Source of the DNA: a virus
Lineage: Duplodnaviria; Caudoviricetes
IMG/VR virus record: IMGVR_UViG_2974522809_000001
Span: 7,093-71,092 of that record
Length of the DNA: 64,000 nucleotides
Strand: one strand, 5' to 3'
Below, one piece after another: positions 53,774 to 61,573 of this stretch. The position numbers and the translations under genes are program-made. Numbering within the stretch: the stretch's first letter is position 1; each line of letters opens with the position of its first letter. Below the pieces are notes generated by a model, which had not been told where the DNA came from, did no database searches, and worked only from the letters and a program-made list of their open reading frames with translations.

Positions 53774-53997
53774 CACCCGACGACGTGCCGGTCACCATCG
53801 TTGACAAGCGCCGACCCTTGCCACTGCCCACCCTGGCCGAGAACGTGGCCAGGCAGCGTGAGCAGGTACGGCGCAACATCAACCAGCTGGCGGGCACGCT
53901 GTGGTGGAAGGCCCAGGGCAGCCCCACGCCCGAGGAGGCCCTGGCCACGCGGGACGCGCTGCTGGCCCAGGCGCGCATGAACGGGCTCGACGTATGA
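53770..53997 (+). CDS. Hypothetical protein
   Basis: 75 aa, overlapping start/stop codons. Confidence 0.65.
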   Translation: MTPDDVPVTIVDKRRPLPLPTLAENVARQREQVRRNINQLAGTLWWKAQGSPTPEEALATRDALLAQARMNGLDV

Positions 53998-54557
53998 GCG
54001 CCGACCCTCTGGAGCTTGAGGACGACGAGCCCGACACCAAGGGCTGGCAGCCCGACCTGCTGCTGGTGCCCGCGCTGCTGGCCGGTAGCCCCACCACCAT
54101 GGCCGACCTCTGCCCGGCCGACCGCGCCTGGGCGGTGGCGGGCCTCATGCGTGCTGGCCACACCGCCGAGCGCATCCGCGACCGCATGGGGTGCAGCCTG
54201 CGCACGGTGCGCATGGTCAGCGCGTGGGCAGCCACCACCGCCATGATGCTGCTCCAGGAAGAGACCGAGCACTTCCAGGACGAATACCGGATGCAGGCCA
54301 GCGAGATTGCCCGCCTGACCCGTGAGCTGGCCACCAGCGAGGCCACCGCCAAGCGGTACCAGGATCAGCTGGCCAACGTGCTGGACAGCTACCTCACCGG
54401 TGAGGCCGGGCCTAGTTTCCCGAAGTGCGGGCACCCGAAGACCAAGTACAACACCTACACCGCGCCCAAGACCGGCAAGACCAGTTGCCGAATCTGCCAC
54501 TGCGATGCCCAGCGCGCCTACGAGGCCCGCAAGGCTGCCGCCGCCGCCGAGCGCTAG
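53994..54557 (+). CDS. HTH DNA-binding protein with C-terminal Zn-finger-like domain
   Basis: ATGA overlap, 187 aa. GHTAERIRDRMGCSLRTV helix-turn-helix and CGH..T..NTY...CRIC. Confidence 0.7.
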   Translation: MSADPLELEDDEPDTKGWQPDLLLVPALLAGSPTTMADLCPADRAWAVAGLMRAGHTAERIRDRMGCSLRTVRMVSAWAATTAMMLLQEETEHFQDEYRMQASEIARLTRELATSEATAKRYQDQLANVLDSYLTGEAGPSFPKCGHPKTKYNTYTAPKTGKTSCRICHCDAQRAYEARKAAAAAER

Positions 54558-60131: not shown

Positions 60132-60362
60132 CTACGGTGTCACCACCTCGTCGTCGGGGCCGGAGCCGTAGCTGGACGGGTGCTTGGCGGTGGCGCATCG
60201 GGCGTTCTTGCCCGCCATGCCGACGCCGTGCTTGGCGTTGACAAACGCGGGGTTCATGCACGCCTGGTCGTAGACCGGGTACTTGCCGGTCTCGGCGCTG
60301 GCGGTCGCGGCACCGAACAGGGCCAGCCCTGCGGTCAGTGCGGCGGCGATCAGGTACTTCAT
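60132..60362 (-). CDS. Small secreted protein (signal peptide, 2 Cys)
   Basis: AAGGAGG RBS, MKYLIAAALTAGLALFGAATASA, 76 aa. Confidence 0.75.
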   Translation of the reverse strand: MKYLIAAALTAGLALFGAATASAETGKYPVYDQACMNPAFVNAKHGVGMAGKNARCATAKHPSSYGSGPDDEVVTP

Positions 60363-60396
60363 GGTGGTTCCTCCTTGGTTGTGGTTTGGTCGTGCG

Positions 60397-60467
60397 CTCC
60401 AGGGGCGGGAATCGAACCCGCGAGGTTGGCTCGTCAGCCGTGGCGACCCCATCGCGCCAGCCCTGGA
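60397..60467 (-). ncRNA. tRNA-like cloverleaf with a 4-nt anticodon loop (tRNA mimic or pseudo-tRNA)
   Basis: 7-bp acceptor TCCAGGG/CCCTGGA, D-arm GGCG/CGCC, T-arm GCGGG-TTCGATT-CCCGC, 5-nt variable loop ending in C. No encoded CCA. Confidence 0.65.
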
Positions 60468-60514
60468 AGGTGGTACCGGGCCAGTGGTCAGTTCACCGGC
60501 CCGGCACCGGTCTA

Positions 60515-61573
60515 TTACACCGGCAGCAGCGCGCTGAACGCCTTGGCCTTCATGTCGCCCAGGTCGTTGCTCATCAGGGTGCGCTGCGCCCGCTTGATGG
60601 CTGCCTCCTCGCCCTCGGCCTTGGCGGCGGCACCGGCCAGCGGTGCCACATGGTCCAGGTACTCGGTCACCGCGTTGTACACCCCGAACGCCGTGCCACG
60701 GAACGGGGCCACGGTCTCGGCGGTGCGGTACAGGTCAACCACCTCGGCGGCGCGCAGCTTGCGGCTCTCGGCCTGCTTCTCGGTGGTGGCACCCGGCACG
60801 TTCCAGATGTCCTCCAGCACCTCGATGACCTGCACGGGCGTCATCTCCCGCTTGATCAGCTTCTCCACCTGCTCCACGAACGTGTCGCGGTACTGGAAGG
60901 TCAGCCCCAGCAGCTGGCGAATCTCGGCCAGGCGCTTGTCCGGCGTGCCGGTGTGGCGCAGGGTAGCGGTGCTGCGGGCGGCGCTCTCGGCCATGCGCTG
61001 CGTGTTGGCGCACACGATGCGCACCGGGGCGATGAGCGCGCGGAGCGGGGCCTGGCCGGTGTGGTTGTTCAGGACGCTGATGTACAGGTCCGTCACGTCC
61101 AGCTCACCGGTCACCGGGCTGCGAAACTCCATGTGGCTGGGCAGCTTCATGGTGACGAAGGTGTCCCGCCCGCCGCGCAGTGCGCCGATGGTCTCGATGT
61201 GTGCGCCGCCCTCGTCCACGATCTGGTTCAGCAGCTCGGTGGTCTGCTCGTTCTGGAACGGGGTCCAGCGGTTGCCGACCACGCCCAGCGCCTCGGTGCC
61301 GCCGTTGATCGGGTTCGTGCGGAGCACGACGTTGCGATCCGGCACGGTCAGGCTCAGGGTGCCCTCGCCGGTCTGGTCGGGCACCTCGGCGGTCAGGGGC
61401 ATGGTGCGCACGTCCCAGCCGCGCATGTGGGCGGCGTCCAGGGCCTCGTCCACCGTCATGGTGTGGCCGACGGGCGTGCCCAGCTTGTGCCAGGCGTCCA
61501 CCCGTCCGCTGGCGTCCACTCGGCTGTCGGCAAAGCTGGTGACGCCATCGGTGGTGTCGAGTTCGTGGGCCAT
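60515..61573 (-). CDS. DUF932-family phage/plasmid-like protein (TIGR03299-like)
   Basis: 352 aa with AWHKLGT, W..FQN, ET.G.L.GG..F, N.H.G, P.R..CANT, and GTA.G.YNAVTEY.DH motifs. Confidence 0.8.
   Translation of the reverse strand: MAHELDTTDGVTSFADSRVDASGRVDAWHKLGTPVGHTMTVDEALDAAHMRGWDVRTMPLTAEVPDQTGEGTLSLTVPDRNVVLRTNPINGGTEALGVVGNRWTPFQNEQTTELLNQIVDEGGAHIETIGALRGGRDTFVTMKLPSHMEFRSPVTGELDVTDLYISVLNNHTGQAPLRALIAPVRIVCANTQRMAESAARSTATLRHTGTPDKRLAEIRQLLGLTFQYRDTFVEQVEKLIKREMTPVQVIEVLEDIWNVPGATTEKQAESRKLRAAEVVDLYRTAETVAPFRGTAFGVYNAVTEYLDHVAPLAGAAAKAEGEEAAIKRAQRTLMSNDLGDMKAKAFSALLPV

What the first reader, a model, noticed from the sequence alone, without database searches (positions are those of the whole stretch)
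60397..60467. Anticodon-less tRNA mimic embedded in an early polycistronic transcript
Seen (minus strand): TCCAGGG CT GGCG-CGATGGGGT-CGCC A CGGCT-GACG-AGCCA ACCTC GCGGG-TTCGATT-CCCGC CCCTGGA G. This gives a 7-bp acceptor, 4-bp D-stem with GG in the loop, 5-nt variable loop ending in C, and a perfect T-arm with consensus TTCGA, all in canonical spacing. The anticodon loop is 4 nt instead of 7, U8 is C, and no CCA is encoded. It lies between the DUF932 gene and a secreted-protein gene, after another hairpin (about 60472-60500). Known: the T-loop/D-loop elbow and acceptor are what RNase P, RNase Z, CCA-adding enzyme and tRNA-sensing proteins recognise. Inference: a non-decoding tRNA mimic used as an mRNA processing signal, or as a decoy/modulator of tRNA-targeting defences or the stringent response.
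Basis: partly seen in the sequence, partly recalled or inferred. Interest (0 to 1): 0.85.

Follow-up and report, generated by a model that had tools for sequence, protein, structure and literature searches.

The report
Anticodon-less tRNA-like cassette in mycobacteriophage
A 71-base stretch between two genes of a Mycobacterium smegmatis phage folds like a transfer RNA descended from tRNA-Asn but has no anticodon; related phages carry three other tRNA-shaped inserts, or nothing, at exactly the same spot, so it looks like a conserved but dispensable RNA signal (most likely a cutting site for tRNA-processing enzymes), not a working tRNA.

Summary
Window 60397-60467 (minus strand) folds as a cloverleaf: 7-bp acceptor, 4-bp D stem with GG, perfect T arm, and a central arm closed by a 4-nt loop, with C8 and no CCA. 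A descriptor scan finds it once in the window against 0.01 per shuffle. tRNA finders reject it. The phage is a Coopervirus (cluster B4), identical to phage Heath at this locus.

- **Origin:** its acceptor and T arm are those of genuine tRNA-Asn genes.
- **Variation:** in 24 B4 phages the same site, after a conserved hairpin and before the RBS of a small signal-peptide protein, holds four unrelated cloverleaf cassettes. A, this one, is in 9 phages and B, Nigel's annotated 'tRNA-Ile', in 4. C is in 3 and D in 1; six phages have none.
- **Selection:** within types A and B the element changes more slowly than flanking four-fold sites. Heath-versus-Cooper changes keep every pair, including a compensatory change in the aberrant stem.

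So it is not a neutrally decaying pseudo-tRNA, yet it is dispensable.

Best reading (about 0.45): a phage 't-element', cut by host RNase P and RNase Z to punctuate the gp86-gp85 transcript. No RNA data exist, so processing, a decoy role and 'early' timing are untested.

The parts
60515..61573 (-). Upstream gene (Heath gp86 homologue), DUF932 family, stop codon TAA at 60517-60515
   Evidence: ORF list; Pfam DUF932 E 2.4e-50; PHROG 1221, unknown function; GenBank annotation of Heath
60472..60508 (-). 15-bp G+C-rich hairpin with 7-nt loop, directly after the stop codon and without a U tract. It is present in every relative, in at least four sequence versions that all fold as hairpins.
   Evidence: Fold in context; intergenic sequences of 17 phages and 17 viral contigs
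60397..60467 (-). Cassette A: 71-nt tRNA-Asn-derived cloverleaf without an anticodon. It has a 7-bp acceptor, a 4-bp D stem, a central arm of 4 bp plus a GACG loop, a 5-nt variable region, a 5-bp T stem plus UUCGAUU loop, and discriminator G. No CCA is encoded.
   Evidence: structure, more than chance; tRNA-Asn ancestry; constraint
60427..60440 (-). Aberrant 'anticodon' arm: 14 nt instead of 17, with a 4-nt loop. One pair (U-A in Heath) is C-G in Cooper and a second is G-C versus G-U.
60405..60421 (-). T arm with consensus T loop. Together with 60397-60404 it forms the 23 nt that are identical to bacterial tRNA-Asn genes.
60363..60396 (-). C/A-rich unstructured leader with RBS AAGGAGG at 60370-60376
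   Evidence: conserved in all relatives
60132..60362 (-). Downstream gene (Heath gp85 homologue): 76 aa, signal-peptide-like N-terminus, annotated as membrane protein, PHROG 8425

Best explanation
The element is a tRNA-derived RNA of tRNA-Asn lineage that cannot decode. It keeps everything tRNA-processing enzymes read: a 12-bp acceptor/T-arm coaxial helix, a consensus T loop, D-loop GG, and a discriminator with no CCA. It has lost the anticodon loop, which is closed to a GACG tetraloop. It is transcribed as part of the leftward gp86-gp85 message. Inferred mechanism: host RNase P cuts between 60468 and 60467, and an RNase Z-type activity cuts after G60397. This leaves the DUF932 mRNA ending 4 nt after a 15-bp protective hairpin. 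It frees the gp85 mRNA with a 34-nt C/A-rich leader and releases a ~71-nt tRNA-like RNA that may receive CCA. It would work like plant-mitochondrial t-elements or mascRNA. It is one of four interchangeable cloverleaf cassettes at this site and is not essential. Shown: sequence, fold, ancestry, cassette polymorphism, purifying constraint. Inferred: transcription through the site, both cleavages, and any effect on mRNA stability or expression.
For: - **Fold:** the cloverleaf is the MFE fold alone and in context. It is unique in the window against 0.01 per shuffle.
- **Ancestry:** the acceptor and T arm are identical to genuine tRNA-Asn(GUU) genes.
- **Shared shape:** four sequence-unrelated cassettes at the same site all fold into four-way junctions with a 6-7-bp acceptor and a 5-bp/7-nt T-like arm. 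None has a canonical anticodon arm. A+B consensus folding keeps the acceptor and T arm, with 6 pairs changed on both sides.
- **Borders:** cassette borders coincide exactly with tRNA nt 1 and N73, the RNase P and RNase Z sites. All types lack CCA.
- **Pair-preserving change:** Heath versus Cooper shows 6 substitutions, 3 of them in stems. All preserve pairing, including a U-A to C-G swap in the aberrant arm (Monte Carlo P about 0.01).
- **Slow evolution:** elements change more slowly than flanking four-fold sites. A: P 0.002-0.005 (Cooper) and <3e-5 (Vincenzo). B: P 7e-3 to 4e-7.
- **Environmental copies:** contigs from three wastewater runs carry cassette A unchanged while the flanks differ.
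- **Transcript context:** same strand as both flanking genes, and no promoter-like or U-tract terminator site between them.
- **Precedent:** t-elements direct RNase P and RNase Z cleavage of mRNAs (PMC1920247).
Against: - No RNA evidence of any kind exists. Transcript ends, a 71-74-nt species and CCA addition are all untested.
- Six of 24 relatives lack any cassette, and Bane1 carries an inversion through it. The signal is therefore dispensable for plaque growth on M. smegmatis.
- Fast turnover of cassette type between near-identical genomes is not what one expects of a housekeeping processing signal.
- C8 and C14 replace the U8-A14 tertiary pair, and cassettes C and D lack D-loop GG (D also lacks a T-loop consensus). 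Elbow recognition is therefore uncertain.
- Slow within-type evolution could partly reflect recent recombination of the module, since phage genomes are mosaic.
Confidence: 0.45

Rival explanations
1. Neutral relic. A phage tRNA-Asn gene lost its anticodon loop and now persists as a harmless pseudo-tRNA. The other cassettes are likewise dying tRNAs, and the empty alleles are the end point. Any RNase P cleavage is incidental.
For: tRNA ancestry. A graded series from near-tRNA (cassette B of RawrgerThat, 38 bits) through A (14-17 bits) to C and D (no tRNA score), and finally absence. Six empty alleles and one inverted copy. The core tertiary positions 8 and 14 are mutated.
Against: All 20 pairs are intact. 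Changes between Heath and Cooper are pair-preserving, with one double compensatory change in the very arm that lost its function (P about 0.01). Elements evolve more slowly than four-fold sites in every A and B comparison. The central arms of C and D differ completely in sequence, yet both are long perfect hairpins.
Confidence: 0.25
2. Trans-acting tRNA body. The released, possibly CCA-tailed, anticodon-less RNA acts as a decoy or modulator for proteins that read the acceptor/T-arm. Candidates are acceptor-end-modifying toxins of defence systems, tRNA-sensing enzymes, or the GatCAB transamidosome that recognises U1-A72 of tRNA-Asn. Cassette turnover would reflect an arms race.
For: Rapid swapping of cassette types between otherwise near-identical phages, with presence/absence polymorphism, is typical of counter-defence loci. 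Anticodon loops are closed in A and in the Nigel form of B, which would prevent decoding while keeping the tRNA body. U1-A72 plus G73 are retained in A, C and D.
Against: No target is known. No defence or anti-defence gene is linked to the site. One copy inside an mRNA would have to compete with the whole host tRNA pool. Cassettes C and D lack elbow motifs. There are no experimental data.
Confidence: 0.15
3. Structure-only or DNA-level role. The compact fold acts as a 5' stabiliser or insulator for the downstream mRNA without tRNA-enzyme cleavage, or the DNA acts as a recombination hot spot. The tRNA shape is merely inherited.
For: All cassette types are very stable folds placed about 30 nt upstream of a strong RBS. 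Cassette borders are razor-sharp and reshuffled relative to both flanks, and a local inversion exists in Bane1.
Against: This does not explain why the acceptor plus T-arm geometry and the T-loop consensus are kept in A and B. No repeats or recombinase sites are evident. The cassettes are found nowhere else in 50,697 phage records.
Confidence: 0.1
4. A functional decoding tRNA that the finders miss.
For: Phage Nigel's element at the same site is annotated tRNA-Ile. RawrgerThat's scores 38 bits.
Against: Cassette A has a 4-nt loop and no possible anticodon. It scores 14.4 bits against a cut-off of 29. ARAGORN calls neither A nor B. B has a 3-bp anticodon stem or an 8-nt loop, plus C8 and C37.
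Confidence: 0.02

Closest known systems
Plant-mitochondrial t-elements (tRNA-like elements flanking mRNAs; Forner et al. 2007, PMC1920247)
   Same: Non-canonical cloverleaf that retains the GGTTCRANYCC T-arm motif. It lies in an intercistronic or untranslated region, its ends sit where mRNA ends would be made by RNase P and RNase Z, it has no decoding role, and it derives from tRNA genes.
   Different: A phage of an actinobacterium, not an organelle. Cleavage is not shown here. The site is polymorphic for four cassettes and for absence.
mascRNA / MEN-beta tRNA-like 3'-end modules of vertebrate lncRNAs (own knowledge)
   Same: A tRNA-like fold with a reduced, non-conserved anticodon loop embedded in a longer transcript. 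RNase P makes the 3' end of the upstream RNA, which is protected by an adjacent structure. RNase Z and the CCA enzyme finish a small RNA of about 60 nt.
   Different: Eukaryotic nuclear system. The upstream protector there is a triple helix, here a plain hairpin. No homology.
Murid gammaherpesvirus 68 vtRNAs (TMERs) (own knowledge)
   Same: Virus-encoded tRNA-like RNAs that are processed by host tRNA enzymes and CCA-tailed but not aminoacylated. They serve as processing modules for adjacent RNAs.
   Different: Pol III promoter function and miRNA linkage. Animal virus. No homology.
Phage tRNA genes and pseudo-tRNAs, in particular tRNA-Asn of actinobacteriophages and the 'tRNA-Ile' annotated in phage Nigel (NC_011044, gene 87)
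   Same: Same genomic site as Nigel gene 87. The acceptor and T arm match tRNA-Asn. Same size and orientation.
   Different: No anticodon loop, C8/C14, fails every tRNA caller, unannotated in all cassette-A genomes. The Vincenzo and AlanGrant genome announcement reports that no tRNAs were predicted (PMC4472886).
Bacterial Y RNA (YrlA) tRNA-like domain with Ro60
   Same: A tRNA-mimicking D/T/acceptor module in a non-coding RNA. Known from some mycobacteriophages (PMC4201824).
   Different: No Ro60/TROVE gene in this genome. No Ro-binding stem. No Rfam match.

Membership tests
Canonical tRNA (Rfam RF00005) | Score at or above the family gathering threshold (29 bits), or a call by a tRNA finder | tested here: not met
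   14.4 bits, E 0.16; best clan hit tRNA-Sec 17.2 bits against a cut-off of 47; ARAGORN finds no genes
Canonical tRNA (Rfam RF00005) | 7-nt anticodon loop with U33 and purine 37 on a 5-bp stem | tested here: not met
   4-nt loop GACG on 4 bp plus a mismatch; the arm is 14 nt instead of 17
Canonical tRNA (Rfam RF00005) | 7-bp acceptor stacked on a 5-bp T stem with a T-loop consensus; D-loop G18G19 | tested here: met
   identical to tRNA-Asn genes over the 23 3'-terminal nt and the 5' acceptor strand
Canonical tRNA (Rfam RF00005) | U8 and A14 (core tertiary pair) | tested here: not met
   C8 and C14
t-element-type mRNA processing signal | Non-canonical cloverleaf with a conserved T-arm motif inside an mRNA, on the sense strand | tested here: met
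   co-oriented flanking genes with no promoter-like or terminator-like site between them
t-element-type mRNA processing signal | Transcript 5'/3' ends coincide with the element's ends; cleavage by RNase P and RNase Z | not testable with these tools
   No RNA holder listed for this phage; the laid runs were contigs only
t-element-type mRNA processing signal | Structure maintained by selection | tested here: met
   Pair-preserving and compensatory changes, P about 0.01; slower than four-fold sites. Caveats: few independent lineages, and recombination is possible.
Y RNA / YrlA | Ro60 (TROVE) partner gene and a Ro-binding helix | tested here: not met
   No TROVE match in the genome; no Rfam hit
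attP core (3' part of a host tRNA next to an integrase) | Integrase nearby; only the 3' portion of a tRNA present | tested here: not met
   Complete cloverleaf. No integrase is annotated in Heath. The 'integrase' label in phi1_186018 sits on the DUF932 gene. Cluster B phages are described as not temperate (PMC4472886).

The most novel reading that the evidence does not exclude
Coopervirus phages keep a hypervariable slot that is repeatedly refilled with different 'disarmed' tRNA bodies, in which the acceptor, T arm and elbow are kept and the anticodon loop is closed or replaced. The released RNA would act in trans as a decoy or sensor-blocker for host proteins that read the tRNA acceptor end or body, for example acceptor-modifying toxins of abortive-infection systems, or GatCAB via U1-A72. 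The cassette swapping and losses would be the footprint of an arms race.
Probability: 0.1. Interest if true: 0.85.

Novelty: new variant of a known kind. Interest (0 to 1): 0.55.

Why it matters
If the element is cut by RNase P and RNase Z, it would carry the 'tRNA punctuation / t-element' principle, known from organelles and vertebrate lncRNAs, into a bacteriophage operon. It would also show that phages can recycle tRNA genes into non-decoding RNA signals.

The locus offers a ready-made natural experiment. Near-isogenic phages carry cassette A, B, C, D or none, on a laboratory host with good genetics.

It also exposes an annotation blind spot. Cassette A is unannotated in every genome that carries it, while cassette B is annotated as a tRNA-Ile that probably cannot decode. 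Several older records run a protein-coding ORF through the element.

If the trans-acting reading were true instead, it would be a new class of phage counter-measure.

Tried and rejected
- **RNA evidence:** The look-up of sequencing runs listed no RNA holder. The four runs laid were contigs and cannot show RNA ends. They gave only natural DNA variants: cassette A unchanged in three runs, the empty allele in one.
- **More relatives:** a metagenome scan with gp85 gave one unrelated weak hit. A viral-contig scan with the gp85 start gave the same eight records. The DUF932-based scan added only one new B4-type contig (cassette B); more distant relatives have a hairpin but no cloverleaf.
- **Cassettes elsewhere:** none of A, B, C or D occurs at any other place in 50,697 phage records beyond T-arm-length tRNA matches. 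A mobile-element reading therefore has no support.
- **Extended protein ORF through the element** (ATG at 60452; older annotations of Cooper, Stinger, Adawi, JAMaL): rejected. One-nt indels between relatives break the frame, and the strong RBS and signal peptide start at 60362.
- **Y RNA:** rejected.
- **attP remnant:** rejected (no integrase; complete cloverleaf).
- **Link to the phage 'queuine tRNA-ribosyltransferase' gene:** this is a DpdA-like DNA-modification enzyme according to PMC6392294, so no link is assumed.
- **Phage 'RNaseE' annotation:** the ORF I took to correspond (window 53901-54554) gave no RNase E Pfam hit. The mapping is uncertain and was not pursued.
- **Phage CCA-adding enzyme:** none found.
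- **gp85 homologues in cluster L phages:** no adjacent tRNA.
- **Literature:** searches found no description of this element.
- **Earlier scan notes:** none for this genome.

Full report
**1. What is there**

RNAfold gives the cloverleaf as the minimum-free-energy and centroid structure. This holds for the 71-72 nt alone (-35.1 kcal/mol) and within the whole 161-nt intergenic region (z -3.3, 0 of 200 shuffles as stable).

The element has:
- a 7-bp acceptor;
- C8 and U9;
- a 4-bp D stem with a 9-nt loop containing GGGG;
- a central arm of four Watson-Crick pairs closed by a GACG tetraloop (14 nt instead of the canonical 17);
- a 5-nt variable region;
- a 5-bp T stem with loop UUCGAUU;
- discriminator G followed by CGC, so no CCA.

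A simple descriptor (T-loop consensus, T stem, acceptor, D arm with GG) hits once in the 64-kb window on both strands. In 100 dinucleotide-preserving shuffles the mean was 0.01 without the D-arm condition and 0 with it.

tRNA finders reject it. ARAGORN finds nothing and Rfam finds nothing at gathering thresholds. The tRNA model gives 14.4 bits at E 0.16 as the only candidate in the whole 71-kb genome, and tRNA-Sec gives 17.2 bits.

**2. Context**

The window belongs to a Mycobacterium smegmatis phage of genus Coopervirus (cluster B4). The locus is 100% identical to phage Heath, although the window's own record is 71,092 bp rather than Heath's 69,258 bp.

Read 5' to 3' on the minus strand, the order is:
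1. a DUF932 gene (60515-61573);
2. a 15-bp hairpin without a U tract (60472-60508);
3. a 4-nt spacer;
4. the cloverleaf;
5. a 34-nt C/A-rich leader with AAGGAGG;
6. a 76-aa protein with a signal-peptide-like N-terminus (60132-60362).

All of these lie on the same strand within a long leftward gene block. No promoter-like or U-tract terminator-like site lies between the two genes. Co-transcription is therefore likely but not shown, and 'early' timing is unverified.

**3. Ancestry**

The 23 3'-terminal nucleotides (T arm plus acceptor strand plus discriminator) were scanned against one genome per prokaryotic species. They matched four sites in three unrelated bacteria. ARAGORN calls three of the four sites tRNA-Asn(GUU); the second site in the Nitrospinae contig is not called as a tRNA and lacks the matching 5' acceptor strand. 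The 5' acceptor strand of the three called genes, which was not part of the query, is identical too.

U1-A72 with G73 is the tRNA-Asn signature (own knowledge), and this agrees with the matches. The D arm and central arm do not resemble tRNA-Asn. Cassette A is therefore a tRNA-Asn derivative whose anticodon arm has been shortened by 3 nt and rewritten so that the former loop pairs.

**4. The locus is a cassette slot**

I extracted the stop-to-start interval of 17 B4 phages and of viral contigs. Every genome has the hairpin, in at least four sequence versions that all fold, and every genome has the leader and RBS. Between them lies one of four unrelated inserts of about 70-76 nt, or nothing:

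| Cassette | Phages | Count |
|---|---|---|
| A (this element) | Heath, Apex, Magpie, Bane2, Fortunato, Mithril, Vincenzo, AlanGrant, Cooper | 9 |
| A, disrupted by an inversion | Bane1 | 1 |
| B | Nigel, phi1_186018, Stinger, RawrgerThat (plus one metagenomic contig) | 4 |
| C | VioletZ, Hydro, JAMaL | 3 |
| D | ChrisnMich | 1 |
| None | BrownCNA, Austelle, Lolalove, Prince, Mudslide, Adawi | 6 |

These 24 phages are all the distinct B4 genomes in the collection.

- **Cassette B** is the element annotated 'tRNA-Ile' in Nigel and phi1_186018. ARAGORN does not call it. Only the RawrgerThat version passes the Rfam tRNA threshold, at 38.3 bits with a 3-bp anticodon stem. It has C8 and C37. In Nigel a C-to-U change lets the arm fold as 5 bp with a 5-nt loop. 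It is about 74% identical to T4-like phage 'tRNA-Met' genes.
- **Cassettes C and D** share a 6-bp acceptor (U1-A72, G73) and a T stem. In C these match 26 of 28 nt to Microbacterium-phage tRNA-Asn. Their central arms are long perfect hairpins of unrelated sequence. D has no T-loop consensus.

All four types fold as four-way junctions with an acceptor and a 5-bp/7-nt T-like arm. RNAalifold on A+B keeps exactly the acceptor and T arm, with six pairs changed on both sides.

None of the cassettes occurs anywhere else in 50,697 phage records. More distant DUF932 loci have the hairpin but no cloverleaf.

**5. Is it maintained or decaying?**

- **Within cassette A:** Heath and Cooper differ by six substitutions and one indel. 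Three substitutions fall in stems and all preserve pairing, including a U-A to C-G double change and a G-C to G-U change in the aberrant central stem. The GACG loop is unchanged. Random placement of six substitutions gives such an outcome in about 1% of trials, or 0.6% with a double compensatory change.
- **A against neutral sites:** identity at four-fold degenerate sites of the two flanking genes is about 0.77 for Heath-Cooper and 0.58-0.83 for Heath-Vincenzo. The element is 0.91 and 0.99 identical respectively. The binomial P is 0.002-0.005 for Cooper and below 3e-5 for Vincenzo.
- **Cassette B:** the same pattern holds in all six pairwise comparisons (P 7e-3 to 4e-7). Its few differences lie in loops or preserve pairs.
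- **Environmental copies:** contigs from three wastewater runs carry cassette A without a single change while the flanks differ. A fourth run carries the empty allele.

These results argue against a neutrally decaying pseudogene. Two caveats apply: there are few independent lineages, and phage mosaicism could mimic constraint through recent exchange of the module.

On the other side, six empty alleles and the Bane1 inversion show that the element is dispensable for growth on the laboratory host.

**6. An unexplained feature**

Divergence between cassette types begins at tRNA nucleotide 1 and ends right after N73. The hairpin type and the 3'-flank type occur in several combinations with the same cassette. 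Genomes that are 91-98% identical in the flanks carry different cassettes or none.

Razor-sharp borders at the two tRNA-processing sites fit a functional unit defined by those sites. The rapid turnover, however, looks more like an arms-race or selfish locus. I could not identify the recombination mechanism.

**7. Mechanism**

The features kept in A and B are the ones read by RNase P, RNase Z and the CCA-adding enzyme, according to established knowledge of these enzymes:
- a 12-bp acceptor/T coaxial helix;
- the T-loop consensus;
- D-loop GG;
- a discriminator with no CCA.

The features needed for aminoacylation of tRNA-Asn and for decoding (the anticodon) are gone.

The most economical reading is a phage 't-element'. 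RNase P cleavage at 60468/60467 would leave the DUF932 message ending 4 nt after a protective hairpin. 3' cleavage after 60397 would free the gp85 message with its leader, and a ~71-nt RNA would be released. The phage encodes no CCA enzyme and no Ro60, so host enzymes would do the work.

Plant-mitochondrial t-elements (PMC1920247) and mascRNA (own knowledge) are the closest functional precedents. I put this at about 0.45.

The rivals are:
- neutral relic, 0.25;
- trans-acting decoy or modulator, 0.15;
- structure-only or DNA-level role, 0.10;
- a working tRNA, 0.02 or less.

**8. Novelty and verdict**

No paper found describes the element. The genome announcement for the cassette-A phages Vincenzo and AlanGrant states that no tRNAs were predicted.

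tRNA-like processing modules and pseudo-tRNAs are known kinds. New here are the phage setting, the disarmed tRNA-Asn body under apparent constraint, and the four-cassette-or-empty polymorphism. I rate it a new variant of a known kind, with interest 0.55. It is well worth a northern blot and a deletion, but at present it is a structural and evolutionary inference without RNA data.

Noticed in passing
L004 (Bane1, KF279412.2) about 613-651; corresponds to window 60446-60484: Bane1 carries an inversion of about 39 bp covering the 3' arm of the hairpin and the first 22 nt of cassette A. This destroys both structures. Its near-twin Bane2 has the normal arrangement. Whether the inversion is real or an assembly error is unknown.
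   Followed up: partly
L001 922-991 (Nigel) and L002 923-992 (phi1_186018): The annotated 'tRNA-Ile' is not called by ARAGORN. It has C8, C37 and a 3-bp anticodon stem or an 8-nt loop. In Nigel a C-to-U change closes the loop to 5 nt. It is probably non-decoding too, so the tRNA-Ile annotation is doubtful.
   Followed up: partly
L008 588-962 (Cooper gp92), L011 593-967 (Stinger gp88), L012 593-901 (Adawi gp90), L006 681-974 (JAMaL gp91): Older records start the gp85 homologue far upstream, so the ORF runs through the hairpin and cassette. One-nt indels among relatives break this frame, and a strong RBS plus signal peptide mark the shorter start. These are probably mis-called starts.
   Followed up: partly
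L002 1-874 (phi1_186018): The DUF932 gene is labelled 'integrase' in this record. Pfam finds only DUF932 in the Heath homologue, and cluster B phages are described as not temperate.
   Followed up: partly
L027 about 2280-2360 and L028 about 2280-2358: In two more distant viral contigs (DUF932 71% identical) the post-gene hairpin is followed by an extra long imperfect hairpin of about 75 nt. After that comes a sigma-70-like promoter (TTGACA, 17 nt, TAACTT) in front of a different downstream gene. It is not tRNA-like.
   Followed up: partly
window 60132-60362 (-); L043 1417-1653 (LeBron gp64): The small signal-peptide protein has homologues at 60-64% identity in cluster L mycobacteriophages, at an unrelated genomic position with no tRNA-like neighbour.
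   Followed up: partly
window 60472-60508 (-) and the same place in L001-L031: A strong hairpin without a U tract directly follows the DUF932 stop codon in every relative, including distant ones. It occurs in at least four unrelated sequence versions, so the structure is conserved but the sequence is not. It could be a terminator or a 3' stabiliser; this is unresolved.
   Followed up: partly
window 53901-54554 (+): Heath's record annotates a small 'RNaseE' gene in this neighbourhood. The ORF I took to correspond shows no RNase E Pfam hit, only PHROG 928 (unknown function) and weak HNH-like matches. The mapping between the record and the window is uncertain here.
   Followed up: no
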